DNA from: a virus
Lineage: Duplodnaviria; Caudoviricetes
Length of the DNA stretch: 57,962 nucleotides
Virus record (IMG/VR): IMGVR_UViG_3300048834_000191
Coordinates: 1 to 57,962 of that record
Direction: 5' to 3' (one strand)
In this document: positions 3,313-46,209 of the stretch, in pieces
Numbering within the stretch: the first letter of the stretch is position 1
Layout of the letters: the number at the start of each line of letters is the position of its first letter
Program-made: the position numbers and the translations under genes
Notes under the pieces: model-generated
Told to the model about the DNA's origin: nothing
What the model saw: the letters and a program-made list of their open reading frames with translations, nothing else
The model's database searches: none

Positions 3313-3314
3313 TC

Positions 3315-3572
3315 ATGAGCAAGACATACGACAACACGAACTCTGGCGCGCTGTTCAAGAACCAGAAGAAGTCATCGGAGAAGCATCCCGATTATACGGG
3401 CAGCGTCAATGTCGGCGGCGTCGAATACTGGCTTTCTAGCTGGATTAAGAAGTCAAAGACCGGCGACACGTTCATGTCGCTCGCGGTGACGCCGAAGGAC
3501 AAGGACGCCAAGCAGACAGAAAAGGCGAAACCTGTGTCTAAGGAAGAACTCGACGACACCATCCCATTTTAG
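3315..3572 (+). CDS. Single-stranded DNA-binding protein-like
   Basis: GALFKN..K..EKHPDYTG core, acidic DDTIPF tail, next to recombinase. Confidence 0.75.
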   Translation: MSKTYDNTNSGALFKNQKKSSEKHPDYTGSVNVGGVEYWLSSWIKKSKTGDTFMSLAVTPKDKDAKQTEKAKPVSKEELDDTIPF

Positions 3573-3581
3573 AGGCGATCC

Positions 3582-3881
3582 ATGTGCCAGCTCACAAAGC
3601 ACGGTGTCGAGCGAATGGAAAGTAGGCTGGGTATCCCCAGGAAAGCCGCGCAGAAAATGGCGGACAAGGCATTTGAATATGGGGCATGTCGGCGGGATTT
3701 TTCAGGAAGTTTCCGCCGATACCTGGACGATCAATATTATTCAAAGGCGCAAGCAAACAACATGCGGGTATATGCCGAGCATCTATGGCTGTTCGCGAAT
3801 ACTGATCTAATCACAGTCTGGCGTGTACCGCATGAATATTTGAATGCTGCGAATAGAGCGATGAAACGGGAGGCTGCGTGA
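3582..3881 (+). CDS. Hypothetical protein
   Basis: GAGG RBS; TKH..ERM..R and LITV motifs. Confidence 0.6.
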   Translation: MCQLTKHGVERMESRLGIPRKAAQKMADKAFEYGACRRDFSGSFRRYLDDQYYSKAQANNMRVYAEHLWLFANTDLITVWRVPHEYLNAANRAMKREAA

Positions 3882-3996
3882 TTGGAGATGAATATAGAGA
3901 CTTCGGCCCGTCTGACAAATGGGTAACGTTCGGTGAGTTGTTCTTTTGCGCGCTAGAGTTGGCGGCAATCATAGCTCTCATTTGTATGGTGGCCTA

Positions 3997-32375: not shown

Positions 32376-33347
32376 TTAGCGGGAAACAACCGCTACGCCG
32401 AGCGTATCCTTGATGCTCGTCGCAGTCTTATCCCAGTTGGTACCCGTCTTGAGAACCGCATCGGTCGGCGAGTGGCTGCCCGAACCCGTATCCCAGGTGT
32501 AACCCTTGAGAGCGAGGTTGAACGTCCATTCCGCCTGATAGGTGCGCTCGATGTTCTCCTGGCCGTTGGTCGTTTCGGTGTTCGCGAAAAAGTCGTTGTT
32601 GTCTTCAGCGATAATCGCGTTCTCGACCAGACCAAGCGAGACGTAATCATAAACGTCAGGCGAGACAATGTGCTGTGCAAGGCTCGGAGAGTCGGTGATG
32701 ATGAACACGCGACCAAAGCCATCCTCGCGAATCTGCACCGTGCCGAACTCGAACAAATTGGTCGAGTTGGTCAGTGCCTTATCGCGGATATCGAACAGCG
32801 GCTTGGAGTGCATGACCCACGCCTTGATTGCCTGCTCACGGTCGCCAAACTTGGCAGAACCGTAGTTAAGGCCGTTGAGCGTAAGCGTGCCGTTCGACGG
32901 CACCGTGTAGGTAACGTCAGTACCAACATTGCGCACCGCAGCCGCAGCCGCACCAATCGCGGAGTTAAGCTCGTCCTGCAACATCGCCTTGGCAAGCTGC
33001 TCGCCAATGACAACGCCGGCGACTTCGGGATTCTGCTGAATCCAGGTGAGCTGCTGCGGTTCCCACTTGATCGGGGGAGTGCCACCGGCAACCTTGACGC
33101 TGTTGTTCTGCAACATGGCGAGCGCAACCGCGTTCACCGAGCCGGAGCCGTAAGCATTACGCCGACGCACGAGGCCGGAGATATTGGCAAACGACGCCTT
33201 CATGGCGTAATCGCCAACGTTACGCTTCGAGGTCAGGGTAATGGTACCCCGCGAAGCGGCATTAAATTTCTGAACTTCCTGGTCTACAGTCTCCGTCACG
33301 GTATCGTAAACGAAGTCGTTGAAGACCTTCATATCGGTCAAAGCCAT
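32376..33347 (-). CDS. Major capsid protein
   Basis: FNAAS.G.I.L, KFGD....I..WVMHS, TDSP.L, Q.EW.FNL..KGY.WD; strong codon bias. Confidence 0.9.
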   Translation of the reverse strand: MALTDMKVFNDFVYDTVTETVDQEVQKFNAASRGTITLTSKRNVGDYAMKASFANISGLVRRRNAYGSGSVNAVALAMLQNNSVKVAGGTPPIKWEPQQLTWIQQNPEVAGVVIGEQLAKAMLQDELNSAIGAAAAAVRNVGTDVTYTVPSNGTLTLNGLNYGSAKFGDREQAIKAWVMHSKPLFDIRDKALTNSTNLFEFGTVQIREDGFGRVFIITDSPSLAQHIVSPDVYDYVSLGLVENAIIAEDNNDFFANTETTNGQENIERTYQAEWTFNLALKGYTWDTGSGSHSPTDAVLKTGTNWDKTATSIKDTLGVAVVSR

Positions 33348-33364
33348 TTAAGTATAAATCCTTG

Positions 33365-34129
33365 CTATTTATTTTCGCGTTTATGTTTGAGGTACGCGGC
33401 CTTATCCTCGTCGGTCTTGGCTTCTGACCAAGACTTAGGAACGCCGCTGTTGTTAAGAGGCTTCCCGCCATCATTTTGTGAGCGCGTCCCGCCGCCCGAT
33501 TGGCCAGAGCCTTCAAACGCTCGACCGTAGATATTCACATCCGCTTTCATTTCCTTGATGAGATCGGAAATGGTGAGCGGTTCGCCTTTTGCGTTAATGC
33601 GAGGATCACCCTTGGCATCAACAATCTGGACGGCGTACTCGCCATCCTGCTCGACCACCCGCGTGAGGCGCTGCACATGCGGCAGGAGCAATTCAGGAAC
33701 GCCCTTCTCCGCAGCAATCGCGGATACAGCCTGAGAGTTAATCAGGTGTTTTTCGAGCGTGGTTTTCATGGAAGCAACGGACTGATCGCGCTGCTTCAAT
33801 TCGTTCTGGTGTTTTTCGTTAAGCTGATTTTTCAGCTTGTCCCATTCACCGGCATTCTTGGCCTTGTCTTCTTCGGCCTTCTTGCGGGCCTCAACCAGCT
33901 CGGCAATTTCTTCCGCGCTAAGTCCGAGTCCCTCATACTGCTTGGCGCGCTTGGCTGCATCTGCTGCCGCCTTGCGTTCCTTCTGCAAGGCAGACTTAAG
34001 ACTTGCGGTGTCTTCCGGTTCAGGAAGGCCATCAACGGCCAAACGAAACTTGCCGTCTTTCTCTACATAAAGCGCCTTCTGCGCGTCTTCCAAACCATCA
34101 AGAGTATCAATTTCAAATTTAAGAGACAT
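33365..34129 (-). CDS. Capsid scaffolding protein
   Basis: LY.EKDGKF.L.VDG..LKSAL.KER coiled coil; upstream of capsid. Confidence 0.85.
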   Translation of the reverse strand: MSLKFEIDTLDGLEDAQKALYVEKDGKFRLAVDGLPEPEDTASLKSALQKERKAAADAAKRAKQYEGLGLSAEEIAELVEARKKAEEDKAKNAGEWDKLKNQLNEKHQNELKQRDQSVASMKTTLEKHLINSQAVSAIAAEKGVPELLLPHVQRLTRVVEQDGEYAVQIVDAKGDPRINAKGEPLTISDLIKEMKADVNIYGRAFEGSGQSGGGTRSQNDGGKPLNNSGVPKSWSEAKTDEDKAAYLKHKRENK

Positions 34130-35890: not shown

Positions 35891-36076
35891 TTAATCGGCA
35901 TAAAGATAGCGGCCAATAAAGCGGCCAGAGTATTTGTCGCCATACTTAGTCAGGTAATTTGCGTGCATCCGCAACCAAGCGGCGATTTCCTTTCGGCCCT
36001 TCGGCGTCATTTCATCAGCGCTCTTGATGGTAACAATCGCAGCGCTTTGCACTTTAGTTTTCTTCGCCATCACCAA
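35891..36076 (-). CDS. Small basic hypothetical protein
   Basis: ORF fills the gap. Confidence 0.5.
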   Translation of the reverse strand: MVMAKKTKVQSAAIVTIKSADEMTPKGRKEIAAWLRMHANYLTKYGDKYSGRFIGRYLYAD

Positions 36077-36704
36077 TCCAGTTCTCTTTAACCCAATCTA
36101 AATCTTGAATCTGATCCGGCCTTCGCTTGCCGGCGAATGTCACCAGCTTTGCGCGTTCCGGTAAAATATCGTCTTTCGGCCAGCCGGGTTTTTTGTAAAC
36201 GAAAACCTCATCGCCGCATTGCCAACCCGCAGCATCGGGAAGCGTAGAAGCTAGCCAGCCCTGATCGTCTGGAAACTCATGGAATTGAGTCTTGGCGGCT
36301 TCGTTGAGATTAAATCCCGTCCAAACTTCTTCATTCGTATATGCGCGCTGCATCCAGAGAGCGCCGTCATATGGGCATGGCTGGTAACTGCCGCCCTGCA
36401 TAATCACAAAGTCTTCGCCTCGATCAAACAGCGTATCGAGGTTGCCGGTAATGATCGTGTCAACGTCCACCTGGACGATACGGTCACCGGGCTTGAACCC
36501 CATGCGTTCCTGCCACGCATAATCGAACATGCGCAGACGGCAAAAACAGCCGGGGATTTCCGTGTACGGTAAATCTTCGATCTCAGGCGCTACGAAATGC
36601 TGTTCGTAGTCCTGATTGATATTTCGTTTTAGTGCAGCAGATAATCTGGACTGGTATTCAGGCGGGTATTTGTTGCCCCACAGCCACGTTACGATGTGAA
36701 GCAA
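36054..36704 (-). CDS. GT-A glycosyltransferase-like protein
   Basis: WG.KY..EY..L; VDVDTIITGNLD (DxD); DDQGW; F.G..RP. Confidence 0.7.
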   Translation of the reverse strand: MLHIVTWLWGNKYPPEYQSRLSAALKRNINQDYEQHFVAPEIEDLPYTEIPGCFCRLRMFDYAWQERMGFKPGDRIVQVDVDTIITGNLDTLFDRGEDFVIMQGGSYQPCPYDGALWMQRAYTNEEVWTGFNLNEAAKTQFHEFPDDQGWLASTLPDAAGWQCGDEVFVYKKPGWPKDDILPERAKLVTFAGKRRPDQIQDLDWVKENWIGDGEEN

Positions 36705-37476
36705 TTAATTTACGTGCCTCGCCCAATACTCTTTCGACTGTGATTGCTCGCATGGCTTGCTTACAGTGTTCGCAGTCAATGATCTTTCCGCACGCCACGC
36801 CGCCCTCGCCCGTAAATATGTTGGCGTGGAAATCATACCCAGTAGTAGCAGGGCTGATAAAACCTCCGAACAATACAACAGCGCCAATACCAACAGCAGC
36901 AGCGCCGTGGTGCATACCGCCTTCACAGCCCATAAACATTTTCGCATGTTGCAGGACTGCAAGTGCTTTCCTGAATGTCGGAGTCTTGATTTCACGCACG
37001 CCTGATAGAACACGGCCGCCGCTATGCCTGAACTGGACAACTTCATGCCCCTCTTTGCGTAGTTGATCGGCTACCGCCTGCCATCGCTCGAACGGCCAGC
37101 GTTTGTTGTTCGCTACTGATTTTTGTTCTGGTACATTCGGCTCAATGACGATGAAGCCAGAGCCAAACTGTTTGCCGAAATCTAATTCGTCTTGATCGAA
37201 AAATATCTCACCGGGTATCGGCTTGAAGTCTCGCCATACCCAATGATCGCCACCGGGATAGAAATTATAGAGGCGGTCACCGGCATAGTGGGCAACCCAC
37301 TCAATGTCAGGTTCACGCTCTGAACCGGGTGGCGCTACGTTCGGATTGTTGCGAAAGATTTCGTATTCGTACGTCTTCCAGCGGATTTTCAGCTTATCGC
37401 CGAAAGCTATTCGCTTTCCTCTTGCCTTCGCGCCACGAGCTAGGCCGGTCGCGATCAGCGCATCGCCAAGGCCGAT
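36658..37476 (-). CDS. GT9 (heptosyltransferase-like) glycosyltransferase; ATC start
   Basis: Hand translation: IGLGDALIATG..NNP..NKRWPFERW..VAD.L..EGGMHHGAAAVG..AVVLFG; frame open 272 codons. Confidence 0.8.
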   Translation of the reverse strand: MGLGDALIATGLARGAKARGKRIAFGDKLKIRWKTYEYEIFRNNPNVAPPGSEREPDIEWVAHYAGDRLYNFYPGGDHWVWRDFKPIPGEIFFDQDELDFGKQFGSGFIVIEPNVPEQKSVANNKRWPFERWQAVADQLRKEGHEVVQFRHSGGRVLSGVREIKTPTFRKALAVLQHAKMFMGCEGGMHHGAAAVGIGAVVLFGGFISPATTGYDFHANIFTGEGGVACGKIIDCEHCKQAMRAITVERVLGEARKLIASHRNVAVGQQIPA

Positions 37477-37477
37477 A

Positions 37478-38236
37478 CTAGAGCGCCCAACTGTCTAATT
37501 CGTCTCGCCACTCTTGGGCGAACTCACAATCTTCGTATCCCGGCATATCTGGTGTGCCTAAAGTGTAGTGCAACAGCTTGGCCTCACCGCGAAACTTCTC
37601 ATCGTACTCGCCTACGAGGAAATTCCACTCCCTGCCTATCGCGCCAATGTCATTATCAGACAGCCACCCGAATTGATGCAGGAACTTCCCGCTTGCGTTA
37701 TTCACAAGATCAATCGTCAACGATTTGTTGGCGGGATGGTCGCAGTTAAACAGCATGACTGACGACCAATTCTTTCGCGCGTATTTAGTCTGCGCTTGCC
37801 CGTCCATTTTAATATCAGACTTGGGCGCGTAATCATGTTGAACGCAAAGCAACGCTTTATGCCGCTGCGTTTCCGCGTATTCAAATAGCCGCACCAGATT
37901 GCAGCCCGGACGAGCCAGCATGTCGCAATCAATAAACAGCGCCCAACCCGTCTGCGCCAGATACGGCACAATGAACCGCGTAAGCGAAAATTGCGTGGAC
38001 ATGGGCGCGTCAGAGATAACATCATATCTCTGGAAGCCCGTTCCTTTAGGGTTCGCCCTGACTTCTTCTTTTCGCCAGTATAAATTCTGCGCGCGCAGAT
38101 CCGATTGAACCAACCCCTGAATCGGGATCGGCTGCGTCAGCCATTTCTTGATCGAATGTCTTGCAACTGCGAAGGCTGCGGACTCTCTCGGATCGAAGCC
38201 TATAAAGATTGATCGTTCATTCACGGCAGAGGACAT
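37478..38236 (-). CDS. GT8-like glycosyltransferase
   Basis: IFIGFDPRE; STQFS.TRF.VP; FIDCDML; RKNWSSVMLFN; WN.LVG; HYT.G.P. Confidence 0.8.
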   Translation of the reverse strand: MSSAVNERSIFIGFDPRESAAFAVARHSIKKWLTQPIPIQGLVQSDLRAQNLYWRKEEVRANPKGTGFQRYDVISDAPMSTQFSLTRFIVPYLAQTGWALFIDCDMLARPGCNLVRLFEYAETQRHKALLCVQHDYAPKSDIKMDGQAQTKYARKNWSSVMLFNCDHPANKSLTIDLVNNASGKFLHQFGWLSDNDIGAIGREWNFLVGEYDEKFRGEAKLLHYTLGTPDMPGYEDCEFAQEWRDELDSWAL

Positions 38237-38520
38237 TCAACCACAATCGCGTTGTCTTGTTTATCTAACGAGTAGCAATACGGCATCGTATTCAAGTTGA
38301 CCTCGACGCCACTCAAATCGAAATATTCAGATAGAGCGCCCGCAATTAAAACATCTTGCAGGAATTGGTCTATCTGTTCGTCGGAAACACCGCCGCGTAT
38401 ATCAACGATGTTGTCTGATAATCGCCAGCCAGTGACCGGCATATGTTCGCGCGGGAGAAACCTTGTTGAGAGCAATGAGATTAGAAGAAACGCACTAATC
38501 AATATCGGGCGAGTAATCAC
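38221..38520 (-). CDS. Hypothetical protein with N-terminal hydrophobic segment
   Basis: ORF upstream of the GT block. Confidence 0.45.
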   Translation of the reverse strand: MITRPILISAFLLISLLSTRFLPREHMPVTGWRLSDNIVDIRGGVSDEQIDQFLQDVLIAGALSEYFDLSGVEVNLNTMPYCYSLDKQDNAIVVECPLP

Positions 38521-38562
38521 CCGCTCATGGCCTCAATCAAGTTTGTCTCCGAATAAATGCGA

Positions 38563-38667
38563 TGCGGCAACAACCGCTCAACCGCAGCAGCGGACACCTT
38601 GAGCTTAGACACCACTGCCAGCGGTCAAGACCCCGAAGCGTCCTTGCCAGCGGTGTTGCGGGCCGCG
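38563..38667 (-). ncRNA. Candidate structured RNA downstream of tRNA-Pro
   Basis: Stems GCGGC/GCCGC, CAACA-CCGCT/AGCGG-TGTTG, UUCG-capped hairpin. Confidence 0.45.
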
Positions 38668-38677
38668 TGTTAGAATT

Positions 38678-38753
38678 TGGTCGGAGCGGAGGGACTCGAA
38701 CCCCCAACCCTCGCGCCCCAAACGCGATGCTCTCCCGATTGAGCTACGCTCAG
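38678..38753 (-). tRNA. tRNA-Pro(UGG)
   Basis: CTGAGCG-TAGCTCAATCGGGAGAGC-A-TCGCG-TTTGGGG-CGCGA...GTTCGAGTCC...CCA; one acceptor mismatch. Confidence 0.92.
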
Positions 38754-38761
38754 AAATAATA

Positions 38762-38930
38762 TCTAGCTGGCGGGGTGCCCTACTTCCCGCATCTCTTCGC
38801 TCTTTACCGCTTGTACGTTCTCAATGCTGATCGCATCGAGGGTTTGGCGTCACCAAACTCGGAGAGCTACTTTCCCCTAACCCACGCGAGGATTATGGAG
38901 TGTGAGGAGGCCGTTCTCACCTCAGCTAGA
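38762..38930 (-). ncRNA. Candidate structured RNA between the two tRNAs
   Basis: Closing stem TCTAGCTG/CAGCTAGA and at least five internal stems. Confidence 0.6.
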
Positions 38931-38933
38931 ACT

Positions 38934-39009
38934 TGGAGCCGCCTGTAGGATTTGAACCCACGACCAGAAGTTTACAAAACTACTGCTCTACCAACTGAGC
39001 TAAGACGGC
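38934..39009 (-). tRNA. tRNA-Thr(UGU)
   Basis: GCCGTCT-TAGCTCAGTTGGTAGAGC-A-GTAGT-TTTGTAA-ACTTC...GTTCAAATCC...CCA. Confidence 0.93.
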
Positions 39010-39021
39010 AAATTCTATAAA

Positions 39022-39306
39022 TCAGGCTTTCGCCAACTCGATAACCTCGCCATCCTTCTGATAGCATAAGGCGCACGCATATATCGAAGTCCCGCCAGAC
39101 AACTCCCCGCTCTCATTTCTAAATGGTGCGAGCGTCAGTTTAATCACCGCGCTGCCGTTGCAGCGGGAACATACAATCTGCTGCGGATCGTCGAATGCGC
39201 GCTTCCTGGGACGGATGACTTTATCCCCATCCTCGCCAACTACAGCCAAATTATCCGGCTTGTCTTTAGCCGTTCGGGGCTTGCGGATGTAGCGCTTACT
39301 ATCCAT
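39022..39306 (-). CDS. Zinc-ribbon hypothetical protein
   Basis: CSRC...CALC. Confidence 0.55.
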   Translation of the reverse strand: MDSKRYIRKPRTAKDKPDNLAVVGEDGDKVIRPRKRAFDDPQQIVCSRCNGSAVIKLTLAPFRNESGELSGGTSIYACALCYQKDGEVIELAKA

Positions 39307-39363
39307 CGAGAATAGGTTTTAACCCATAAATCCGGAGGATTGCTATAAGTTAAAGCCTATAGT

Positions 39364-41418
39364 TTACGCGGCTAAATTAGCCTTTTTGAACGCGCCAGCC
39401 TCGACTTTCCGCAATTCATCGAGGGTGTATTCCTTGCCCGCATTGTTAATGAAATCGCGGATTTTAAGCCCGCCACGGCGGAATAAAGCGCCCTTCGTGA
39501 CGCCCAGAACATCATCCTGCACTTCGGCTGATTGTCTGCGTAGCCACTGTTCATAAGTCTGCGTGGCAGGTACCTGGCCGTTCATCGAGGCGCGTGTTCC
39601 CGCAGGAACCTCGTCCACATCCAGCCCAAGCTCGCGAAAACTTTTTGTTACTGGGACCGTTGTACAACGGCAGTTGTGTACCCATATGCCGTTAGCGATA
39701 TAAGCGCCAATTTTTGTTTCGAGGTTATAAACGTGACCGCTAAAATCAACACGATCAACACTGATAACCTTATCAAGGACTATCTCGCCGGATTTTCCAG
39801 CGCAAATCTCAGCAGCAAGTACGGCGTCAGCGTCAACACCGTGCTCAGAAGACTTAAAGAACGCGGCGTCAAAATAAGGCCCGGCGCATTCATGCCGTCC
39901 GTTTCCCTCCCGACCGATGAAGTGGTCGCCCTGTTCAACAGGGGCCGAGGCGTTTCTGCTATAGCCAAGCACTTCGGCTGCGTGCGCACCACAGTAGACA
40001 GACACCTGCGTATGGCCGGTATCAAGCCTCGCAATAGAGCCGAACAGCAGGCTGAGCGAATGAAACGTTCTACGCCAGCCGAGCGCAAAAGACTCGCCAA
40101 GGCCGCGCATGACGCGGTTCGAGGAAAGAGCCATACCGAGGCACATCGTAGAAAAACGGCTGCGACGCGACAAAAACGCCAGACACACGTTTCTAAATAC
40201 GAGCGGCAGATTGCCGATCACCTTAAAAATATAGGGCTCGACGCCGTGTGCCAGAAGGCGATTGGTCGCTACAATTGCGATATCGGTATCGCCCCCGTCG
40301 CCGTGGAAATCTTCGGCGGAAATTGGCACTGGTCGGGCATACATTTCGCGGGAACCGAACGCCGCCTCCGCTACATCCTGAATCTTGGCTGGGACGTTCT
40401 TGTCATCCACATCGACAGTCAAAACAGGCCCGACATGGCCGAGGTCGCGAACTACATTGCTTCCTACGTCAATGCTCGACGCGGGCAAGAACCCCCTGCC
40501 CGTGAGTATCGGGTGGTTCGGGGTGCAGGAAAGCTGCTTGCCAGAGGCAGTGCGAATGACGCAAAGCTCTCCATCGTACCAATGTTTACTTGCACCCGTG
40601 ACCCCATCACGGGTCGTTACAAGAGTGTCCGCAGGGAAGCAGTTAATATGTAGCGGAGGGCGCGGCCCTTCGCCCATATCGTATGTCTTGCCATCAAGCG
40701 CGGCGCAGCGGGGACACGTTCTCGTATCGAGCGTGCTCACCCACTGGATTTTAGAAATAATATCCGCGTTCTGTTTATAGACAAGATCGCGTGCGGAATG
40801 GGAAACGTCTGCAACGGCGGTTCTAACGAGAGCCTCAGCCGAACGCCGCGAGATTTCAAGAATCCCGTCCTTGAACTTCAGTGCCCGCGTGCCGCGAATA
40901 CGCTGGATCATTTCCGGCGTAGTCTGGCCTTCAATCATGCCAAGTCTGATGGCTTGGCTTACTCGCGCGTAATTATTCGCGTTTAAGCTGTCAGTCCATT
41001 CCTTGAGTAGCCGACCGCTAATGGGTTCCCGTGTCGCTAAAGCATTAAGCAACGGCGCGGCGGGCGTCACGATATCCATAACGACCGGAATCGTGCTTGC
41101 CAGAAGATTGGCCTGAAAGCCAGCCTCGTATTTCGCTAGGCTCGATAGCTGCCCGCCAAGCTGATTATTTACCTGACGATATGCGTCCGCTGAAATCTCG
41201 CGAACCGCCTTTAGCAAGGCTTCTAATCTGCGCTTCTTAAATCCATCGCCAACATCGTTCAGATCCAGCTTTTGTATTTGCTGGACTAGATCAAGATCGG
41301 TCTTATTCAGTATCGCAAGTATCTTGCGAACTGTTCCATTGGCGAGACGGAGTAGATTTACTTTGTGTCTAACGGAGGCGTCGAATAGGCCTTCGTTTAC
41401 GGATTGCGATTGAGCCAT
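39364..41418 (-). CDS. Head morphogenesis protein (MuF/SPP1 gp7 family) containing an intein
   Basis: A..LVRTA, W.STLD.RT...C..LDG, PP.H.N|CRC motif split by the intein. Confidence 0.92.
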   Translation of the reverse strand: MAQSQSVNEGLFDASVRHKVNLLRLANGTVRKILAILNKTDLDLVQQIQKLDLNDVGDGFKKRRLEALLKAVREISADAYRQVNNQLGGQLSSLAKYEAGFQANLLASTIPVVMDIVTPAAPLLNALATREPISGRLLKEWTDSLNANNYARVSQAIRLGMIEGQTTPEMIQRIRGTRALKFKDGILEISRRSAEALVRTAVADVSHSARDLVYKQNADIISKIQWVSTLDTRTCPRCAALDGKTYDMGEGPRPPLHINCFPADTLVTTRDGVTGASKHWYDGELCVIRTASGKQLSCTPNHPILTGRGFLPASSIDVGSNVVRDLGHVGPVLTVDVDDKNVPAKIQDVAEAAFGSREMYARPVPISAEDFHGDGGDTDIAIVATNRLLAHGVEPYIFKVIGNLPLVFRNVCLAFLSRRSRFSTMCLGMALSSNRVMRGLGESFALGWRRTFHSLSLLFGSIARLDTGHTQVSVYCGAHAAEVLGYSRNASAPVEQGDHFIGREGNGRHECAGPYFDAAFFKSSEHGVDADAVLAAEICAGKSGEIVLDKVISVDRVDFSGHVYNLETKIGAYIANGIWVHNCRCTTVPVTKSFRELGLDVDEVPAGTRASMNGQVPATQTYEQWLRRQSAEVQDDVLGVTKGALFRRGGLKIRDFINNAGKEYTLDELRKVEAGAFKKANLAA
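39673..40641 (-). mobile_element. Intein (323 aa, residues 260-582 of MuF)
   Basis: Block A CFPADTLV, block B TPNHPILT, blocks F/G VYNLET..YIANGIWVHN followed by Cys+1. Confidence 0.92.
39733..40653 (+). CDS. Antisense homing-endonuclease-like protein (2x HTH + NUMOD3-like + DUF559/Vsr-like nuclease)
   Basis: GAGG RBS + GTG; YGVS.NTV.RRL and FG..RTTV.RHL HTHs; GKSHTEAHRRK; SKYE..Q..IG.Y..D..AVEI.GG.WH..LGW.V..I. Confidence 0.8.
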   Translation: MTAKINTINTDNLIKDYLAGFSSANLSSKYGVSVNTVLRRLKERGVKIRPGAFMPSVSLPTDEVVALFNRGRGVSAIAKHFGCVRTTVDRHLRMAGIKPRNRAEQQAERMKRSTPAERKRLAKAAHDAVRGKSHTEAHRRKTAATRQKRQTHVSKYERQIADHLKNIGLDAVCQKAIGRYNCDIGIAPVAVEIFGGNWHWSGIHFAGTERRLRYILNLGWDVLVIHIDSQNRPDMAEVANYIASYVNARRGQEPPAREYRVVRGAGKLLARGSANDAKLSIVPMFTCTRDPITGRYKSVRREAVNM

Positions 41419-41493
41419 CTGCTAGAAATTTTCCTCAAGCGCAAAAATCAGAAAGGGCGATTCCTTAAATTCGGCTCCTACGTTTCGACTATT

Positions 41494-41763
41494 TCAACGC
41501 CAGCCGACATACAGACGAAACGGCCCAATATCTAAACTACAGCCGTGCGTCCGCCACCAACCAGCATAAAGCTGCCACGACAACGGCCAAAACGAAAACT
41601 TGATGTGAACTTTCTGCGCGCATCTCCAAGCCCACAGCCAATCGGAGGGATGGAAAAACATAAATGGCGGTCGCCCAAGTCCGAGCGTGGAATAAACATC
41701 CCGCCGCGTTGCGGGCGGTAAGCTATTTATTTTATCCATGTACCGCTGCGAATAACATCTCAT
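41494..41763 (-). CDS. Trp-rich hypothetical protein
   Basis: ORF between portal and MuF. Confidence 0.45.
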   Translation of the reverse strand: MRCYSQRYMDKINSLPPATRRDVYSTLGLGRPPFMFFHPSDWLWAWRCAQKVHIKFSFWPLSWQLYAGWWRTHGCSLDIGPFRLYVGWR

Positions 41764-41796
41764 CTGAGAACCGCTCTACTAGACTAGAATTGGATA

Positions 41797-41881
41797 AACT
41801 GGCCGATGCTCGTCAACATCACCGGGGATTCCCTCCCCGACAACACTTGGGCGCTATCCAGCAGCCCTATGAAAGCCAGTT
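41797..41881 (-). ncRNA. Candidate cloverleaf-like structured RNA
   Basis: Closing stem AACTGGC/GCCAGTT enclosing three hairpins. Confidence 0.5.
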
Positions 41882-41883
41882 AG

Positions 41884-42135
41884 CTAAATAGAATATCTTG
41901 CTCGGAGATTGGCTCGCTCCATGTCATCCCATGACTTTAGGAGCTTCATCCACTCTTTATCGAACTTGCGAATGCGACCAGTGCCATTGCATCGGTTACA
42001 TGATTGCTCTCGCGTGCCACGACCTGTCTTGCGCCGTTCTGCTAGCGGCATCGGGCGCGGCGGCCACACCCTAATATTTGATCCATCTCCATAACAAACA
42101 TTACAGCACTCTGTTTGCGCAGAACCCATCAGCAA
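41884..42135 (-). CDS. Small DnaJ-type zinc-finger protein
   Basis: CNVCYGDG and CNRCNGTG. Confidence 0.55.
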   Translation of the reverse strand: MLMGSAQTECCNVCYGDGSNIRVWPPRPMPLAERRKTGRGTREQSCNRCNGTGRIRKFDKEWMKLLKSWDDMERANLRARYSI

Positions 42136-42295
42136 TCTTCCTGTTTTTGATAATGGAGCGGGCGAGCTTATGCACGTCGAATACGCCGTGGAGGCATACC
42201 CTCGGCCATTTCACATTTTCATCGGAATAAATTAGACCGCGATGTGTGGCCGTTAACTCGATATATAATTCTTCGGCCAACTGCTCAGGCGTCAC
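42101..42295 (-). CDS. Hypothetical protein
   Basis: GTGA overlap with portal stop. Confidence 0.5.
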   Translation of the reverse strand: MTPEQLAEELYIELTATHRGLIYSDENVKWPRVCLHGVFDVHKLARSIIKNRKIADGFCANRVL

Positions 42296-43875
42296 GCAGC
42301 CTCTTGCTGTTGCTGGCCGCCACCCGCGTTAGGGCCGGCCAAAGGATCAACCATATCCCCCAACGCACCGCCCTGCTGGCTAATCAATTCTTCCTCGGAA
42401 TCAGCATCAAACTCTGCCGACAAAATATCTCGGCGCTGCAATTCCGCCCAATATGTTCTACGCGAAATCTGACCGGACTGTGCATCCTTTTGCAGTACCG
42501 CAGCTTCTTCAACACCAGTCGCGTCAACTCCGAAATCGGTGAATACCTGAACTTCCGGCTCGACATTCAAATTCATCCATTGCGCCGTGTATTTCAGCGC
42601 AAGCTCTAGAGCGTCTTTCAAACCAAGTGCCCACGACTGCAATGTTGAATGCGCCTTGGCTTGGTCGATAGCCTGTCCTGTAGCAGTAGGATTGCCCGAC
42701 TTGTCTGTAATCGGCTGCATCGCAAGGCGACGCATATATTCAATCAGGTCGTTAATATCCTCGCGCAGCTCGGTCATATTGGCTGCTGCTGGCTGGATAT
42801 AATCAGCGTCAGGCTGTGCACCATCAACGCCGGGAGGAAGCGTGATAACCCTCTTGGGGCTTACGGTAACGGTCGGGACTTTCTTGCCAGAGCCGTCATC
42901 TTCAGTAGGCAAGCTATCATTGCTAACGCCCAGCAACTTAAGCATTGGGCTGCCGGCGAAAGCTTGAATTTCATTCTTATTAGACAGCTTCTGATAAAGT
43001 TCTATCTGCGCATCTGCCAGAGACAGCAGCGGCGGGTGAACGATGAAATTGCCGGAACGCTTGCCAGTGAAAAAAAGCGAAACGGGAATTTCAGGAAGGG
43101 AAATCAGCCCTTCATCAATCAGGCTATACGCCTGCTTCTTCTTGTCTCCGCTCGCCTGTTGCGAAGTGTTTACCGGCGTAGATTCCCAAACCTGCCAGCG
43201 CACTTTGCCGGATACGTCTTGGCCGTTTCTGTCTTTGGCCCCATCGGGCGCAATCTCAAACACGCGAACGCGGTCAATTTCGACTTCTTCAAACCCATCC
43301 TGTTCCGTATAGCACTCACGGAAACGGAAATGGCTGATAACGGATCGACCGCCAACATTCTTAAAATACAGCGCGATAATGTTTTCCGGCTGGATTAAGC
43401 ACCAGTACGGGCGAGCGCCGGATTGCTTCTCATCGGCAAGCGTTATACCTGCCTGCATCGTGGGGTAATCAACTAGGATCGCCCCAAGACCGAAACCAAC
43501 GCCAGTGTCGAAATACTCTTTCGAGAACCGCGTTAGATTGGTGCCGCCGCCGTCAACATCTTCAGCGAATGTCTTGATCTGTTCAGGCGCGCCATCAGCA
43601 AGTGAAATATCTTTTTGAAACGGCTTGGCCGACAGGTTGCGCAAGCCGTCTTCAAATTCTGGACGCCAGCTCGTCGTGTTAAGACGACGATTGTATTCGT
43701 CGTTTGTTTCGCCCTCGAAGCGGGGGAGATAATCGGTACGATGCTCACGAACTGCATCAAGTCCGCTAAGGATGGCGCGAATCTTCTCCCAGACAGGAGC
43801 CATAACCTCGGAATCGGTCGATAGGCAAGACGGGTCTAGCGTTGTGTTTGCGTTGCCCGCCGTAGTGTCAGCCAT
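42292..43875 (-). CDS. Portal protein (DUF4055 type)
   Basis: YLP.F..E....Y..RL, DVDG.G..L, LVDYP, RPY, PPL..LA, TAT; follows terminase. Confidence 0.9.
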   Translation of the reverse strand: MADTTAGNANTTLDPSCLSTDSEVMAPVWEKIRAILSGLDAVREHRTDYLPRFEGETNDEYNRRLNTTSWRPEFEDGLRNLSAKPFQKDISLADGAPEQIKTFAEDVDGGGTNLTRFSKEYFDTGVGFGLGAILVDYPTMQAGITLADEKQSGARPYWCLIQPENIIALYFKNVGGRSVISHFRFRECYTEQDGFEEVEIDRVRVFEIAPDGAKDRNGQDVSGKVRWQVWESTPVNTSQQASGDKKKQAYSLIDEGLISLPEIPVSLFFTGKRSGNFIVHPPLLSLADAQIELYQKLSNKNEIQAFAGSPMLKLLGVSNDSLPTEDDGSGKKVPTVTVSPKRVITLPPGVDGAQPDADYIQPAAANMTELREDINDLIEYMRRLAMQPITDKSGNPTATGQAIDQAKAHSTLQSWALGLKDALELALKYTAQWMNLNVEPEVQVFTDFGVDATGVEEAAVLQKDAQSGQISRRTYWAELQRRDILSAEFDADSEEELISQQGGALGDMVDPLAGPNAGGGQQQQEAA

Positions 43876-44003
43876 TAACTAACAGCTACCAGAAATGATG
43901 CAGAGCACCGCCGCGACGGAAACAATGCCACAGCCAACCAAAATTCCGATAGCTGCCCCGCCAGCAACCACAAGCATCGCTTCATCAATTTTATTGCCCA
44001 GCC

Positions 44004-45224
44004 TCATGCCGTCCTCTGCCATCCGAATGTTGCTACTGGTGCCGCCCTGCGTAACGGCTCTAATGCATACCGACACGCATCTATCGTGTGGTTTTTCTTA
44101 TCTTCCAAAACCGGCAAGACCTCATCAGTCTTCTTGTCGATCTCGTATGAATAACTGGAAAGCTCATCGACGACATGCGGACACGCATCGGGGTCAACCA
44201 CAATGTCGTATGACTTCATGAACTCAACGCCCTCCTCAACTGAACCCGGCCCCTTCTTGGCCGCGATTAGTTTCGGATAGCCATGCCGCCGCATGTAACT
44301 AATGGCTTGCGGGTTTGAGCTATCGCCCACACAAGGCCAGAGCCTCGCCATGCCGCCGTCAATCTTATCGAACAATGCCGGTGTGCGGTCTATCTCGCAA
44401 CCTACCGCCCATGATTCAGCGTTGATGTAGATTGTCCGCTCGCCTATCAGATACAGGCGAACGATAACCGTGGGATCAACCGAGAAGCCCCAATCGCAAC
44501 CGAAATACGGGCGACAACCCTTGGGCACCTCCATCTTGCCGGCACGCCAGTTACGGAAGACGCGGGCCTCAGATAGCTTGCGATATTTGCCTAGCCAAAC
44601 GTGGGCGTATTTCTCAGGATCGCGCCGCTTATCGCGCTCCATGTCCCCGCGCAAATCGTCCGGGAACCACGGATTGTCGCTATAGTTAGCGGTAACACAG
44701 ACGAAATTCGGGTCGTCCGCGTTCTCGCGAAACATCTTGTCAACTGGATCTGACGGAGCAGTTGGGTTCCAGCCAAACCTTAGAATAGAACCTTGCGCGC
44801 GAAAGGTAGGTATCGCCAAGTCCATAGACTTCTGCGATAGCTCTTGCGCCTCGTCGAACAAGCCGCGATTAAACCCCTCAGCCGATTTAAAGCGTGAGGC
44901 TGTGTGGTTCTGAATACCTTTGAAGATAAACAGGCTATCGTTCGGACCGCGTATCTCTCGGTCAGTAATTACAAATAAATCATCCAGTCCATATTTATGG
45001 ATGAACGATTCAAGCAACGGCTTAACAGAATCTTCTAGGGAGTTTTGCGTTTCTCTAAGGCACGCACAGCGAATGTGCTGGTCAATGCATTCTTCAACCG
45101 TTCTGCCGCCAAAGAACCAGGATTTACCTGAGCCTCTCCCGCCTTTAGCGCCGGCAAATCGTTTATTGCTTAATAACGGCTCAAATACAGCAGCCGTTTC
45201 AATCCTTAGCGTTCGGCTTGACAA
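44004..45224 (-). CDS. terL: Terminase large subunit (PBSX family)
   Basis: GGRGSGKS Walker A, FDEAQ Walker B, WNP, G.DWGF..DPT, NH.IDA.RY. Confidence 0.95.
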   Translation of the reverse strand: MSSRTLRIETAAVFEPLLSNKRFAGAKGGRGSGKSWFFGGRTVEECIDQHIRCACLRETQNSLEDSVKPLLESFIHKYGLDDLFVITDREIRGPNDSLFIFKGIQNHTASRFKSAEGFNRGLFDEAQELSQKSMDLAIPTFRAQGSILRFGWNPTAPSDPVDKMFRENADDPNFVCVTANYSDNPWFPDDLRGDMERDKRRDPEKYAHVWLGKYRKLSEARVFRNWRAGKMEVPKGCRPYFGCDWGFSVDPTVIVRLYLIGERTIYINAESWAVGCEIDRTPALFDKIDGGMARLWPCVGDSSNPQAISYMRRHGYPKLIAAKKGPGSVEEGVEFMKSYDIVVDPDACPHVVDELSSYSYEIDKKTDEVLPVLEDKKNHTIDACRYALEPLRRAAPVATFGWQRTA

Positions 45225-45498
45225 TCACACGCTCGATCTTCGCGACAATGCCAATGTCCCCGCCGTCTTTTCCTGAATGCTCGACCGCCTGCAATCGAGG
45301 GTGAAGGTACGGCGCGCAAGCCTTCGCCATATCGTCTCTGCGTTCAGTATCGGCAGCCACATCGCGCATAACGCCCAGCATGTATTCTAGCGGGGTAATG
45401 CCCTGCTCTAGGGCCTTGGCGACGATCTCTTGCGTTTTCTTATTCGCTGAGCCTTTGGGCCTACCGGCCCCCGGTCTGGCCCCGCCGTTCTTAGCCAC
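45199..45498 (-). CDS. terS: Terminase small subunit
   Basis: GGARPGAGRPKGS.NK; AK..APY.HP.L..VE.SG. Confidence 0.85.
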   Translation of the reverse strand: MAKNGGARPGAGRPKGSANKKTQEIVAKALEQGITPLEYMLGVMRDVAADTERRDDMAKACAPYLHPRLQAVEHSGKDGGDIGIVAKIERVIVKPNAKD

Positions 45499-45547
45499 TG
45501 ATATCCTCTAAATAAATTTCAGTTAATAAAAGCTCGAAGCGTTTCCG

Positions 45548-45790
45548 TCACGCTGTTGGGTCAATACAGTTGTTTATGTTTGCGTTCCCAGGTTCGGGGT
45601 GACGCTTCGAATCTAGTCTAATTAATATTTCTTCTATAACGTCTTGAAGCTCAGCCGATTTTCGTCCGTCAGCCGCCGCCCAAATACTATTGCGAACAAC
45701 GTCAACATCGCCGCCAGCAAGCGATAGCAAATAATAGGAATAATCTTTTGGCCTAAACCAACTCACGCCCTGCCCGCCGGATGAATGCAT
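45548..45790 (-). CDS. Hypothetical protein
   Basis: ORF in late leader region. Confidence 0.45.
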   Translation of the reverse strand: MHSSGGQGVSWFRPKDYSYYLLSLAGGDVDVVRNSIWAAADGRKSAELQDVIEEILIRLDSKRHPEPGNANINNCIDPTA

Positions 45791-45960
45791 TTCAAAAATA
45801 AATCCTTCACCATCGAAAGCACGTTATCTCTCGTCAGAAATGGATTCTTACCCGCCTGATATTCCAATTCTGCATCTGTCCATGAAGCCAGTTTCTTATG
45901 TAACTCTGAGGCTATGTAGATGTTTTCTGGAATAATTACTGGCGGTGGATTAGCCTGCAT
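45763..45960 (-). CDS. Hypothetical protein
   Basis: ORF in late leader region. Confidence 0.45.
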   Translation of the reverse strand: MQANPPPVIIPENIYIASELHKKLASWTDAELEYQAGKNPFLTRDNVLSMVKDLFLKCIHPAGRA

Positions 45961-46209
45961 GTACGCCTACATGGTTTTAGCTTCTCTCGGCAGGACGCTA
46001 GCTAAAAGCTGACCAGATACAATCTGGTGCGCTTGCGAAATGTGCCGTGTCCGGGGTGGGTGTGATCCCAATAATCAATCGGGTCGCGAGCGATAATTTT
46101 CGGCGGGAACAAAGCGAAAATAACGATGAGATTCAGCCCGACATAGCCAGCCAAAAAATATAATCCGCTCATGTAGACTTTCCACGCCGCGAGAGAATTG
46201 GAATTTGAA

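What the first reader, a model, noticed from the sequence alone, without database searches (positions are those of the whole stretch)
39673..40653. Intein whose endonuclease is a separate gene on the opposite strand, overlapping codon-for-codon
Seen: MuF is interrupted at its H-I-N|C-R-C motif by a 323-aa intein with intact splicing blocks (CFPAD, TPNH, VYNLET, HN/C). The intein interior shows no LAGLIDADG or HNH motif. The + strand holds a stop-free 306-codon ORF (39733-40653, GAGG RBS) in the same codon register. It encodes two HTHs, a NUMOD3-like segment and a DUF559/Vsr-like nuclease motif set. It also overlaps intein blocks A and B and takes its stop codon from the extein, 12 nt beyond the splice junction. 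Known: intein homing endonucleases are normally in-frame domains of the intein. Inference: a two-strand mobile element in which the intein excises the antisense-dictated filler peptide. The nuclease could be expressed independently of late MuF transcription, letting homing be timed with replication.
Basis: partly seen in the sequence, partly recalled or inferred. Interest (0 to 1): 0.92.

Follow-up and report, generated by a model that had tools for sequence, protein, structure and literature searches.

The report
MuF intein with antisense homing endonuclease gene
A phage head-assembly gene carries a self-splicing intein whose homing nuclease is a separate gene read from the opposite DNA strand, a layout reported in a 2025 preprint that proves common and more tightly double-coded than described there.

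Summary
Window 39364-41418 (-) is a MuF gene split at HIN|CRC by a 323-aa class-1 intein (39673-40641). Window 39733-40653 (+) is a 306-codon ORF in the same codon register.

- The + protein folds confidently (pLDDT 88). It has two HTH modules and a Vsr/DUF559-like nuclease core resembling I-Bth0305I.
- The sense-frame interior (intein residues 131-268) does not fold (pLDDT <50).
- In relatives, codon-position variation shows selection on the + frame inside and on the - frame at the splicing blocks.
- 145 of 147 related loci keep both frames open. The other two carry the nuclease gene free-standing beside an intein-less MuF, and there the antisense frame has stops.
- Two metagenome contigs hold a precise intein-less allele.

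It is not categorically new. Gosselin, Arsenault and Gogarten (bioRxiv 2025) report anti-sense VSR-like endonuclease inteins in actinophage minor capsid proteins, and they cite older reports of antisense LAGLIDADG cases.

Added here:
- wide spread (at least 576 viral loci, 143 phage records, 64 bacterial genomes);
- start and Shine-Dalgarno site built from intein block F, and a stop usually opposite intein Leu2;
- true dual coding (PVAVE opposite FHGDG; EYRVIRG opposite TPNHPIL).

Expression, cleavage and splicing are untested.

The parts
39364..41418 (-). MuF (phage head morphogenesis / minor capsid) gene, 684 aa precursor including the intein
   Evidence: Pfam Phage_Mu_F 45.7 bits (cut-off 29.6), residues 153-260. 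PHROG 241 head morphogenesis, E 5.6e-138.
40642..41418 (-). N-extein (259 aa), ending ...PPLHIN
39673..40641 (-). Class-1 intein, 323 aa (Cys1 ... His-Asn, followed by Cys+1)
   Evidence: Blocks read from the sequence. AF2 gives high confidence for residues 1-70, 81-110 and 270-323. Foldseek matches RecA, RadA and DnaB mini-inteins with prob 1.00. Metagenome contigs lack exactly 969 nt here.
39364..39672 (-). C-extein (CRCTTVPVTKS..., 102 aa plus stop)
39733..40653 (+). Antisense homing-endonuclease gene, 306 codons (GTG start, TAG stop), codon-for-codon opposite the intein
   Evidence: AF2 pLDDT 88.4. Codon-position selection on this frame. Free-standing homologues L055 and L110.
39721..39724 (+). 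Shine-Dalgarno-like GAGG, 8 nt before the GTG; it is the antisense of the Asn-Leu-Glu codons of intein block F
   Evidence: Sequence. An SD-like motif was found in 51 of the 56 loci where block F was located by pattern.
39715..39738 (-). Intein block F (GHVYNLET); the His codon read on the + strand is the nuclease start codon
   Evidence: the opposite-strand codon is ATG in 48 and GTG in 8 of 56 loci.
40513..40524 (-). Intein block B (TPNH), dual-coded with the nuclease tail motif EYRVVRG
   Evidence: minus T40, N42 and H43 are 98-100% conserved, and the + codons there are 99-100% fixed. The + motif is kept and the minus motif lost in free-standing L055 and L110.
40627..40641 (-). Intein block A (CFPAD)
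40294..40308 (-). Conserved minus-frame motif FHGDG (intein residues 112-116), opposite the nuclease strand PVAVE that holds invariant Glu192
   Evidence: synonymous codons of P-V-A-V-E are 92-98% fixed in 127 embedded copies. They have drifted in both free-standing copies. Nucleotide-level pile-up of metagenome contigs at 40262-40335.
39838..40251 (-). Sense-frame interior (intein residues 131-268) with no confident fold: read-through opposite the HTH and linker part of the nuclease gene
   Evidence: AF2 pLDDT 33-54 with a 59-sequence alignment. Minus-frame amino-acid entropy exceeds plus-frame entropy there.
39760..40014 (+). Two helix-turn-helix modules (about residues 10-43 and 61-94)
   Evidence: AF2 helices. 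Pfam HTH_23, residues 64-93. HTH families across the 41 members.
40195..40485 (+). Vsr/DUF559-like nuclease core (about residues 155-251), with Glu157, Asp183, Glu192, His199 and His204 conserved
   Evidence: Foldseek 3r3p prob 1.00, TM 0.60; 3hrl TM 0.63. Profile vs PDB: 3hrl 2.8e-5, 3r3p 7.1e-4. 34 of 41 members hit PF18741. Conservation.

Best explanation
This is a composite mobile element in a phage MuF gene. It consists of a contiguous class-1 intein whose homing endonuclease is a separate gene on the opposite strand, in the same codon register.

Inferred mechanism:
- Late MuF mRNA is translated straight through the intein.
- The HINT splicing domain is built from intein residues about 1-126 and 270-323. 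It excises the whole 323-aa insert, including a roughly 140-residue unstructured read-through segment, and joins ...HIN to CRC....
- The + strand ORF starts at a GTG that is the antisense of the block F histidine codon. Its Shine-Dalgarno site is the antisense of the block F Asn-Leu-Glu codons.
- It encodes a 306-aa protein with two HTH DNA-binding modules, a helical linker, a Vsr/DUF559-type nuclease core and a C-terminal beta-hairpin.
- That protein most likely cuts intein-less MuF alleles near the HxN|CRC coding site during mixed infection. Recombinational repair then copies the intein plus nuclease gene into the cut genome (homing).

Shown here: both frames open and each under purifying selection in its own stretch, with two short stretches under selection in both; the + protein's fold and family; a free-standing form of the gene; a precise empty-site allele.

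Inferred, not shown: transcription and translation of the + ORF, nuclease activity and target, and protein splicing.
For: Selection per strand.
- In 73 unique loci, the interior has more variation at + codon position 3 than position 1 (about 1.7 vs 1.3-1.4 bits), and lower amino-acid entropy in the + frame (about 2.1 vs 2.7).
- Both relations reverse over splicing blocks A/B and F/G.
- The same result holds when the alignment is guided by the minus frame.
- Three close pairs give 106, 67 and 221 differences at + positions 1, 2 and 3.

Fold and family.
- AF2 of the + protein: mean pLDDT 88.4.
- Foldseek hits the I-Bth0305I catalytic domain 3r3p (prob 1.00, TM 0.60) and the DUF559-like protein 3hrl.
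- Profile search of the PDB: 3hrl 2.8e-5, 3r3p 7.1e-4.
- 34 of 41 family members hit Pfam MTES_1575 at E<=0.01.
- AF2 of the intein frame: splicing lobes pLDDT 80-98, interior below 50. Its Foldseek hits are inteins only.

Both frames are kept open.
- 82 of 83 loci, 63 of 64 loci, and 66 of 67 inteins ascertained through the intein frame.
- Background antisense-register stop rate in the exteins is 467 per 32125 codons. In the window's own MuF it is 16 per 362 extein codons against 0 per 323 intein codons.

Natural controls.
- In L055 and L110 the nuclease gene is intact and lies convergent, just downstream of an intein-less MuF with HPNCRC or HPQCRC intact.
- Its antisense frame there has stops (18 across the 376 codons translated in L055, 2 in the L110 match).

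Mobility.
- Contigs in two runs from two studies join 39639 to 40639 with 30 letters between, a net loss of exactly 969 nt.
- Homologues occur in 143 phage records and in 64 bacterial genomes whose record titles name many phyla.

Internal control. The two other long antisense ORFs in this contig have no family hit.
Against: - No RNA, ribosome or peptide evidence for the + ORF.
- No sigma-70-like promoter on the + strand within about 3 kb upstream.
- The + gene sits alone against a long minus-strand structural operon, so antisense transcription would collide with late transcription.
- Long antisense-register open frames occur elsewhere in this contig through codon bias.
- The loci were gathered by similarity searches that keep the best 80, which favours intact copies. 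Decayed copies would be under-sampled.
- The last acidic residue of the EDxHD motif is not evident in this family, and Pfam nuclease hits for the window protein are below the curated cut-offs, so catalytic competence is not assured.
- Pfam Intein_splicing is just under its cut-off (34.4 vs 35.8 bits).
Confidence: 0.8

Rival explanations
1. The + ORF is a shadow. It is an accidental open frame opposite a conserved intein domain, kept open by codon bias, and its apparent conservation only mirrors the sense frame.
For: In the same contig the antisense-register frame is open for 324 codons opposite the major capsid gene and 249 codons opposite the portal gene. Any conserved sense protein gives a conserved codon-for-codon antisense translation.
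Against: - Variation concentrates at + position 3, which is minus position 1, in the interior.
- Synonymous + codons vary freely at conserved + residues, while the minus residue opposite them changes.
- The + protein folds at pLDDT 88, whereas the sense interior does not fold.
- There are HTH and nuclease family hits, against none for the two control shadow ORFs.
- In L055 and L110 the + gene stands alone with the minus frame broken.
Confidence: 0.02
2. The + ORF encodes a real protein that is no longer a homing endonuclease. It may be domesticated, for example as a DNA-binding regulator or a nuclease used against competing phages or host DNA, and the intein is now inherited vertically.
For: - The last residue of the EDxHD motif is not conserved.
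- The preprint reports that most VSR-like cases in actinophages look vertically inherited (section 15).
- HTH domains are compatible with a regulator.
- No cleavage data exist.
Against: - Glu157, Asp183, Glu192, His199 and Arg211 are 95-100% conserved and His204 88%.
- The element occurs at one and the same MuF site in phages of very different hosts.
- A near relative (about 90% identical exteins) lacks it precisely.
- Free-standing copies still sit next to MuF, as expected of a nuclease whose target is in MuF.
Confidence: 0.12
3. The nuclease gene is real, but the sense read-through is not a working intein. MuF would then be made as two pieces (a split or fractured gene in the sense of Dassa et al. 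2009), or be inactive in this virus.
For: Vsr-like endonuclease genes are known between split-intein halves (PMC2677866, passages read). Pfam Intein_splicing is just under its cut-off.
Against: - The minus frame is uninterrupted over 323 codons here and in 145 of 147 relatives. It acquires stops as soon as the gene is outside an intein.
- Cys1, TPNH, block F, the terminal HN and Cys+1 are all present and under minus-frame selection.
- No internal stop-and-start signals for two MuF halves were seen.
Confidence: 0.05

Closest known systems
Anti-sense VSR-like HEN inteins of actinobacteriophage minor capsid proteins (Gosselin, Arsenault, Gogarten, bioRxiv 10.1101/2025.01.02.630785; abstract, passages and sections 8 and 15 read)
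   Same: - A contiguous intein in a minor capsid (MuF-type) gene, with a Vsr-like endonuclease ORF on the antisense strand.
- The predicted structure matches Vsr and 3R3P.
- The window protein hits Gordonia phages by tblastn (for example Malisha, E 1e-32). Malisha's match lies antisense to its annotated CDS; for Vivi2, Angelicage and Fosterous the match lies under their MuF-like genes, strand not checked.
   Different: - This copy is in an uncultured, non-actinophage viral contig.
[quoted passage not shown]
- Here the ORF runs from block F to block A and overlaps the N-terminal splicing lobe, and the family is abundant.
- I could not see the preprint's supplementary tables, so I cannot say which phages it lists.
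I-Bth0305I and the EDxHD homing endonuclease family (Taylor et al. 2011, PMC3239194; passages read)
   Same: - Bipartite build: an N-terminal HTH-type DNA-binding region plus a C-terminal Vsr-like nuclease.
- Phage-borne and associated with a self-splicing element.
- Structural and profile similarity to 3r3p.
   Different: - I-Bth0305I is encoded in a group I intron in recA, on the sense strand.
- NUMOD motifs were not detected here.
- The final Asp of EDxHD is not evident.
- The profile is closer to DUF559-like 3hrl than to 3r3p.
Fractured genes: split inteins with a free-standing Vsr-like endonuclease gene between the halves (Dassa et al. 2009, PMC2677866; passages read)
   Same: A Vsr-like endonuclease gene lodged inside an intein-coding region of a phage gene. 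It supports the model that free-standing endonuclease genes invade inteins.
   Different: There the host gene and intein are broken into two ORFs retained in the parent gene's orientation and locus. Here the intein frame stays open and the endonuclease is read from the other strand.
Antisense LAGLIDADG endonuclease inteins (Gorbalenya 1998; Gogarten et al. 2002), as cited in the 2025 preprint; the original papers were not seen
   Same: The endonuclease is encoded on the strand opposite a contiguous intein.
   Different: A different nuclease family and different host genes (dnaX, a SpoVR-like protein, and actinophage minor capsid genes, per the preprint).

Membership tests
Class-1 intein (HINT splicing domain) | Cys/Ser at position 1, block B TxxH, blocks F and G ending in His-Asn, and a nucleophile at +1 | tested here: met
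   CFPAD, TPNH, GHVYNLET and VHN|C are read in the sequence. 80 of 83 rows start with Cys and end (H/S)N followed by Cys.
Class-1 intein (HINT splicing domain) | HINT fold | tested here: met
   AF2 pLDDT 80-98 for residues 1-70, 81-100 and 270-323. Foldseek matches RecA, RadA, DnaB and gp41-1 inteins with probability up to 1.00, though E-values are only 3e-3 or weaker because the model is half disordered.
Class-1 intein (HINT splicing domain) | Curated Pfam Intein_splicing score | tested here: inconclusive
   34.4 bits against a cut-off of 35.8.
Class-1 intein (HINT splicing domain) | In-frame insertion that is absent from some alleles of the host gene | tested here: met
   Contigs of runs X1 and X5 lack exactly 969 nt. 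Intein-less MuF with HPNCRC or HPQCRC is seen in L055 and L110.
Class-1 intein (HINT splicing domain) | Protein splicing activity | not testable with these tools
   Needs expression and a gel or mass-spectrometry assay.
Vsr-like / EDxHD homing endonucleases (I-Bth0305I) | Vsr-type nuclease fold | tested here: met
   Foldseek 3r3p prob 1.00, TM 0.60 on the target. hmmsearch 3r3p 7.1e-4; Vsr 1cw0 only 0.37.
Vsr-like / EDxHD homing endonucleases (I-Bth0305I) | The five motif residues E, D, x, H, D | tested here: inconclusive
   Glu157 96%, Asp183 100%, His199 95% and His204 88%. No conserved acidic residue was found at the place of the last Asp (alignment). The mapping to I-Bth0305I numbering is by eye, not from a structure superposition.
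Vsr-like / EDxHD homing endonucleases (I-Bth0305I) | N-terminal NUMOD/HTH DNA-binding region | tested here: inconclusive
   HTH is present. No NUMOD family was listed for the window protein at E<=1, nor among the 25 families shown for the 41 members.
Vsr-like / EDxHD homing endonucleases (I-Bth0305I) | Site-specific cleavage of the element-less allele | not testable with these tools
   Needs purified protein and an intein-less MuF target.
DUF559 / MTES_1575 PD-(D/E)xK nucleases | Match to the curated family model | tested here: inconclusive
   Window protein scores 17.9 bits against a cut-off of 38.2. 34 of 41 relatives match PF18741 at E<=0.01 (best 2.8e-8) and 3 of 41 match DUF559. The profile hits 3hrl at 2.8e-5.
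Anti-sense VSR-like HEN intein (2025 preprint) | Contiguous intein, endonuclease ORF on the antisense strand, Vsr-like fold, minor capsid (MuF) host gene | tested here: met
   Homology to copies in Gordonia phages lying under their MuF-type genes; antisense position checked for Malisha.
Fractured gene with split intein (Dassa 2009) | Host gene and intein broken into two ORFs | tested here: not met
   A single uninterrupted 684-codon minus ORF.

The most novel reading that the evidence does not exclude
The intein and its antisense nuclease gene are one old, co-adapted, dual-coded unit, not a rare accident.
- The nuclease start codon and ribosome-binding site are made from intein block F.
- Its stop codon is usually made from intein Leu2.
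- Its catalytic strand (PVAVE) and tail hairpin (EYRVIRG) share nucleotides with conserved intein motifs (FHGDG and TPNHPIL), with selection acting on both strands at once.
- The unit has spread through MuF genes of phages of many bacterial phyla.
- It occasionally sheds a free-standing nuclease gene that stays beside MuF.

If so, it would be among the most extensive natural antisense dual-coding arrangements tied to a defined function, and probably the main kind of MuF intein.
Probability: 0.55. Interest if true: 0.65.

Novelty: new member of a known kind. Interest (0 to 1): 0.5.

Why it matters
- Antisense-encoded intein endonucleases are not an actinophage curiosity. The same unit sits in MuF genes of cultured Salmonella, Escherichia, Vibrio, Pseudomonas, Klebsiella, Haemophilus and Gordonia phages and in prophage regions of many phyla. 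In the three phage records inspected, no gene is annotated on that strand.
- It offers a clean natural system for studying two-strand coding. The same nucleotides carry a nuclease active-site strand and an intein motif, and free-standing copies serve as built-in controls for what each strand demands.
- It supports the idea that inteins gain endonucleases by capture of free-standing genes, or lose them again.
- Practically, gene callers miss this gene, so phage annotations lack a nuclease.

Tried and rejected
- Single-sequence phmmer of the + protein against PDB gave nothing below E 0.1. The profile search was needed.
- Megablast of window 36000-46000 against GenBank phages: no match.
- A scan for close relatives of the MuF N-extein in viral contigs gave one distant locus only (42% identity). 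Presence or absence among close relatives could not be mapped that way.
- Promoter scans on the + strand upstream of the ORF found nothing usable and no more sites than in shuffles.
- RNA evidence: no RNA holder listed. The runs laid are contigs and cannot show strand or expression.
- Literature searches with 'opposite strand', 'antisense' plus 'MuF', 'MuF-like', 'head morphogenesis' plus 'Salmonella phage', and 'non-canonical inteins' returned nothing on this arrangement.
- The searches returned the 2025 preprint. It was the only paper in the held library describing an intein endonuclease on the anti-sense strand; one search's second hit was unrelated. Gorbalenya 1998 and Gogarten 2002 were not seen and are cited through the preprint.
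I therefore cannot say whether the Gordonia phages I hit are among its VSR-like cases, nor how many such cases it counts.
- The block F pattern failed to locate the block in 25 loci. Those were left out of the start-codon and SD counts.
- In one search, two short rows (L135, L145) were dropped. The tree is FastTree with a midpoint root, so the direction (escape from the intein, or capture by it) is not settled. It shows only that the two free-standing copies are not sisters and that L110 is nested among embedded copies (support 96-98).
- The reading that the sense interior is itself a nuclease was rejected.
Full report
**What is there.** The window is a whole IMG/VR virus record of 57,962 bases, estimated about 70% complete.
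- On the minus strand, 39364..41418 encodes a 684-aa MuF head-morphogenesis protein. Pfam Phage_Mu_F scores 45.7 bits, and PHROG 241 has E 5.6e-138.
- It is interrupted between ...PPLHIN and CRCTT... by a 323-aa insert (residues 260-582, window 39673-40641).
- The insert starts CFPAD, carries TPNH and GHVYNLET, and ends VHN before Cys+1.
- On the plus strand, 39733..40653 is a 306-codon ORF: GTG start, GAGG 8 nt upstream, TAG stop. It is in the same codon register, so + residue i lies opposite intein residue 304-i.

**Is the plus ORF more than chance?** Length alone does not show it.
- In this contig the antisense-register frame is also open for 324 codons opposite the major capsid gene and 249 codons opposite the portal gene.
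- Those two ORFs have no Pfam or PHROG hit.
- The intein ORF does have hits: HTH_23 above its cut-off, a weak hit to the restriction-endonuclease family MTES_1575, and 13 PHROG families of DNA-binding or endonuclease type.

**Relatives.**
- tblastn of the + protein finds 143 phage records (Salmonella 62, Pseudomonas 15, Gordonia 11 and others), all below 60% identity.
- In the three records I opened (Gordonia phage Malisha, a Vibrio phage and Escherichia phage Snoke), the match lies antisense to the MuF-type gene, and no gene is annotated on that strand. Snoke's annotators marked the intein itself.
- The protein database holds 40 relatives, mostly on contigs of about 1 kb. Four are named very-short-patch-repair endonuclease by their source.
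- A scan of one genome per species found 64 loci. Their record titles name Pseudomonadota, Actinomycetota, Chloroflexota, Gemmatimonadota, Bacteroidota, Planctomycetota, Cyanobacteria, Firmicutes, candidate phyla and more.

**Both frames are kept open.**
- In 82 of 83 phage or viral loci and 63 of 64 genome loci, a minus-strand frame in the same register runs uninterrupted across the + ORF.
- The loci were also gathered through the intein frame instead: 512 relatives, best 80 kept, 67 unique. Of those, 66 have an antisense ORF of at least 200 codons with the nuclease motif. The last has a 234-codon open frame that my pattern missed.
- The background rate of antisense-register stops in the exteins of these genes is 467 per 32125 codons. 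In the window's own MuF it is 16 in 362 extein codons against 0 in 323 intein codons.
- In 80 of 83 rows the insert starts with Cys after an H-x-x motif and ends (H/S)N before C-R-C/S, so the insertion site is the same everywhere.
- Six of ten sampled N-exteins hit Pfam Phage_Mu_F. One (Malisha) hits VG15 and three hit nothing.

**Which strand is selected?**
- In a codon alignment of 73 unique loci, the interior shows more variation at + position 3 than at + position 1, and lower amino-acid entropy in the + frame than in the minus frame.
- Over blocks F/G and A/B both relations reverse.
- Re-aligning by the minus-frame translation gives the same picture. The switch falls near intein residue 58.
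- Three close pairs differ at + positions 1, 2 and 3 by 106, 67 and 221 sites.
- So the interior is constrained as the + protein and the ends as the intein.

**Structure.**
- With 41 sequences, AF2 models the + protein at mean pLDDT 88.4. The model has two three-helix modules, long helices, an alpha/beta core and a beta-hairpin at residues 258-273.
- Foldseek finds the I-Bth0305I catalytic domain (3r3p, prob 1.00, TM 0.60) and a DUF559-like protein (3hrl, TM 0.63). E-values are weak because the query is multi-domain.
- The family profile hits 3hrl at 2.8e-5 and 3r3p at 7.1e-4.
- 34 of 41 members hit MTES_1575 at E<=0.01. No NUMOD3 match was listed at E<=1 for the window protein, nor among the 25 families shown for the members.
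- With 59 sequences, the intein frame is confident at residues 1-70, 81-110 and 270-323, but has pLDDT 33-54 over residues 131-268. Its structural matches are inteins.
- The sense interior is therefore not a hidden endonuclease.

**Natural controls.**
- In L055 (a viral contig), a 328-aa homologue is intact. It lies convergent to, and overlaps by 14 nt, the end of a 168-aa MuF that reads ...HPNCRCCLTFKVD with no intein. The register minus frame there shows 18 stops in the 376 codons translated.
- In L110 (a Thermoleophilia genome bin), a 231-aa homologue lies convergent to an intein-less MuF with HPQCRC. Its minus frame has 2 stops in the match.
- The protein therefore exists without an intein, still beside MuF. 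The open minus frame elsewhere is a consequence of being inside an intein.
- On a FastTree of 129 unique proteins the two free-standing copies are not sisters. L110 is nested among embedded copies (support 96-98). The root is unknown.

**Dual coding.** Across 127 embedded copies:
- At most conserved + residues the synonymous codons vary (top codon 29-75%), and the opposite minus residue varies with them.
- At + 188-192 (P-V-A-V-E, with invariant Glu192) the codons are 92-98% fixed. This gives minus F-H-G-D-G at 91-98% conservation.
- At + 257-264 the minus residues T-P-N-H-P-(I)-L-T are 84-100% conserved (the Ile only 50%), while + Tyr259, Arg260 and Gly266 are also 86-91% conserved.
- In both free-standing copies the + residues persist through other codons and the minus motifs are lost.

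The two segments stand out at nucleotide level in wastewater runs, with depth peaks at 40262-40335 and 40484-40557.

The nuclease start codon is the antisense of the block F histidine (ATG in 48 and GTG in 8 of the 56 loci where block F was located). An SD-like motif precedes it in 51 of the 56.

The stop is opposite intein Leu2 in 51 of 67 unique inteins. The window, with Phe at position 2, runs on to +4 in the extein.

**Mobility.**
- Contigs in two runs from two studies join 39639 to 40639 with 30 other letters between, a net loss of exactly 969 nt. These are a wastewater run (757-nt contig, 165 and 562 letters either side) and a rhizosphere run (330-nt contig).
- Decoded by hand, the 30 letters encode the same ten C-extein residues as the window, with synonymous differences in all ten codons. 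The flanks are about 89-92% identical.
- I read this as a precise empty site plus a short, strongly diverged flank. That is what co-conversion during homing would leave, but this is inference.

**What is known.**
- Gosselin, Arsenault and Gogarten (bioRxiv 10.1101/2025.01.02.630785; abstract, passages and sections 8 and 15 read) report anti-sense VSR-like endonucleases in full inteins of actinophage minor capsid proteins. They found an HHpred match to 3R3P, and they cite earlier antisense LAGLIDADG cases.
- Dassa et al. 2009 describe Vsr-like endonuclease genes between split-intein halves.
- Taylor et al. 2011 characterise I-Bth0305I and the EDxHD motif.
- The kind is therefore known. This window is a new member outside actinophages.
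- What the present work adds is its abundance and breadth, the strand-switch in selection, the shared start, stop and motif nucleotides, the free-standing controls and an empty-site allele.

**What remains open.** There is no evidence on transcription or translation of the + ORF, and no promoter was found. Nuclease activity, its target and protein splicing are inferred. The search tools keep the best matches, so decayed copies may be under-counted.

Noticed in passing
window 38678-38753 (-) and 38934-39009 (-): Two tRNA genes, tRNA-Pro(TGG) and tRNA-Thr(TGT), lie just downstream of the MuF gene inside the structural module.
   Followed up: no
window 32472-33530 (+) and 42649-43398 (+): Two long antisense-register ORFs lie opposite the major capsid gene (352 aa; Gp13-like, E 3e-116 on the minus strand) and the portal gene (249 aa). 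Neither has a Pfam or PHROG hit. They look like codon-bias shadows and served as internal negative controls.
   Followed up: partly
L055 2579-2941 (-): Next to the free-standing nuclease gene lies a 120-aa ORF with a CxxxCxxC-type start and a weak Radical_SAM hit (26.0 bits, cut-off 29.5). An 870-aa ORF follows.
   Followed up: no
L003 (Escherichia phage Snoke, MK931441.1) 2090-3949; L001, L002: The deposited annotation of Snoke marks the MuF intein as a mature peptide but has no gene on the opposite strand. The Gordonia and Vibrio records also lack one. Some Salmonella phage records call the host gene NAD+--asparagine ADP-ribosyltransferase.
   Followed up: partly
window 40262-40335 and 40484-40557: In two wastewater runs, contig depth summed over many contigs peaks sharply at these two short segments (up to 267 and 772, against single or double digits elsewhere). 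Joints skip about 163-168 nt between them. This suggests many other family members share these nucleotides and have a shorter spacer.
   Followed up: partly
L001 (Gordonia phage Malisha) 3230-3739 (-): The N-extein of the intein-bearing gene hits Pfam VG15 (E 2.6e-28), not Phage_Mu_F. The actinophage host protein may be a distinct MuF-like family.
   Followed up: no
L037, L038, L070, L073, L086 (minus ORFs of 1300-1540 aa): Some intein-bearing MuF genes are very long fusion proteins. The extra domains were not examined.
   Followed up: no
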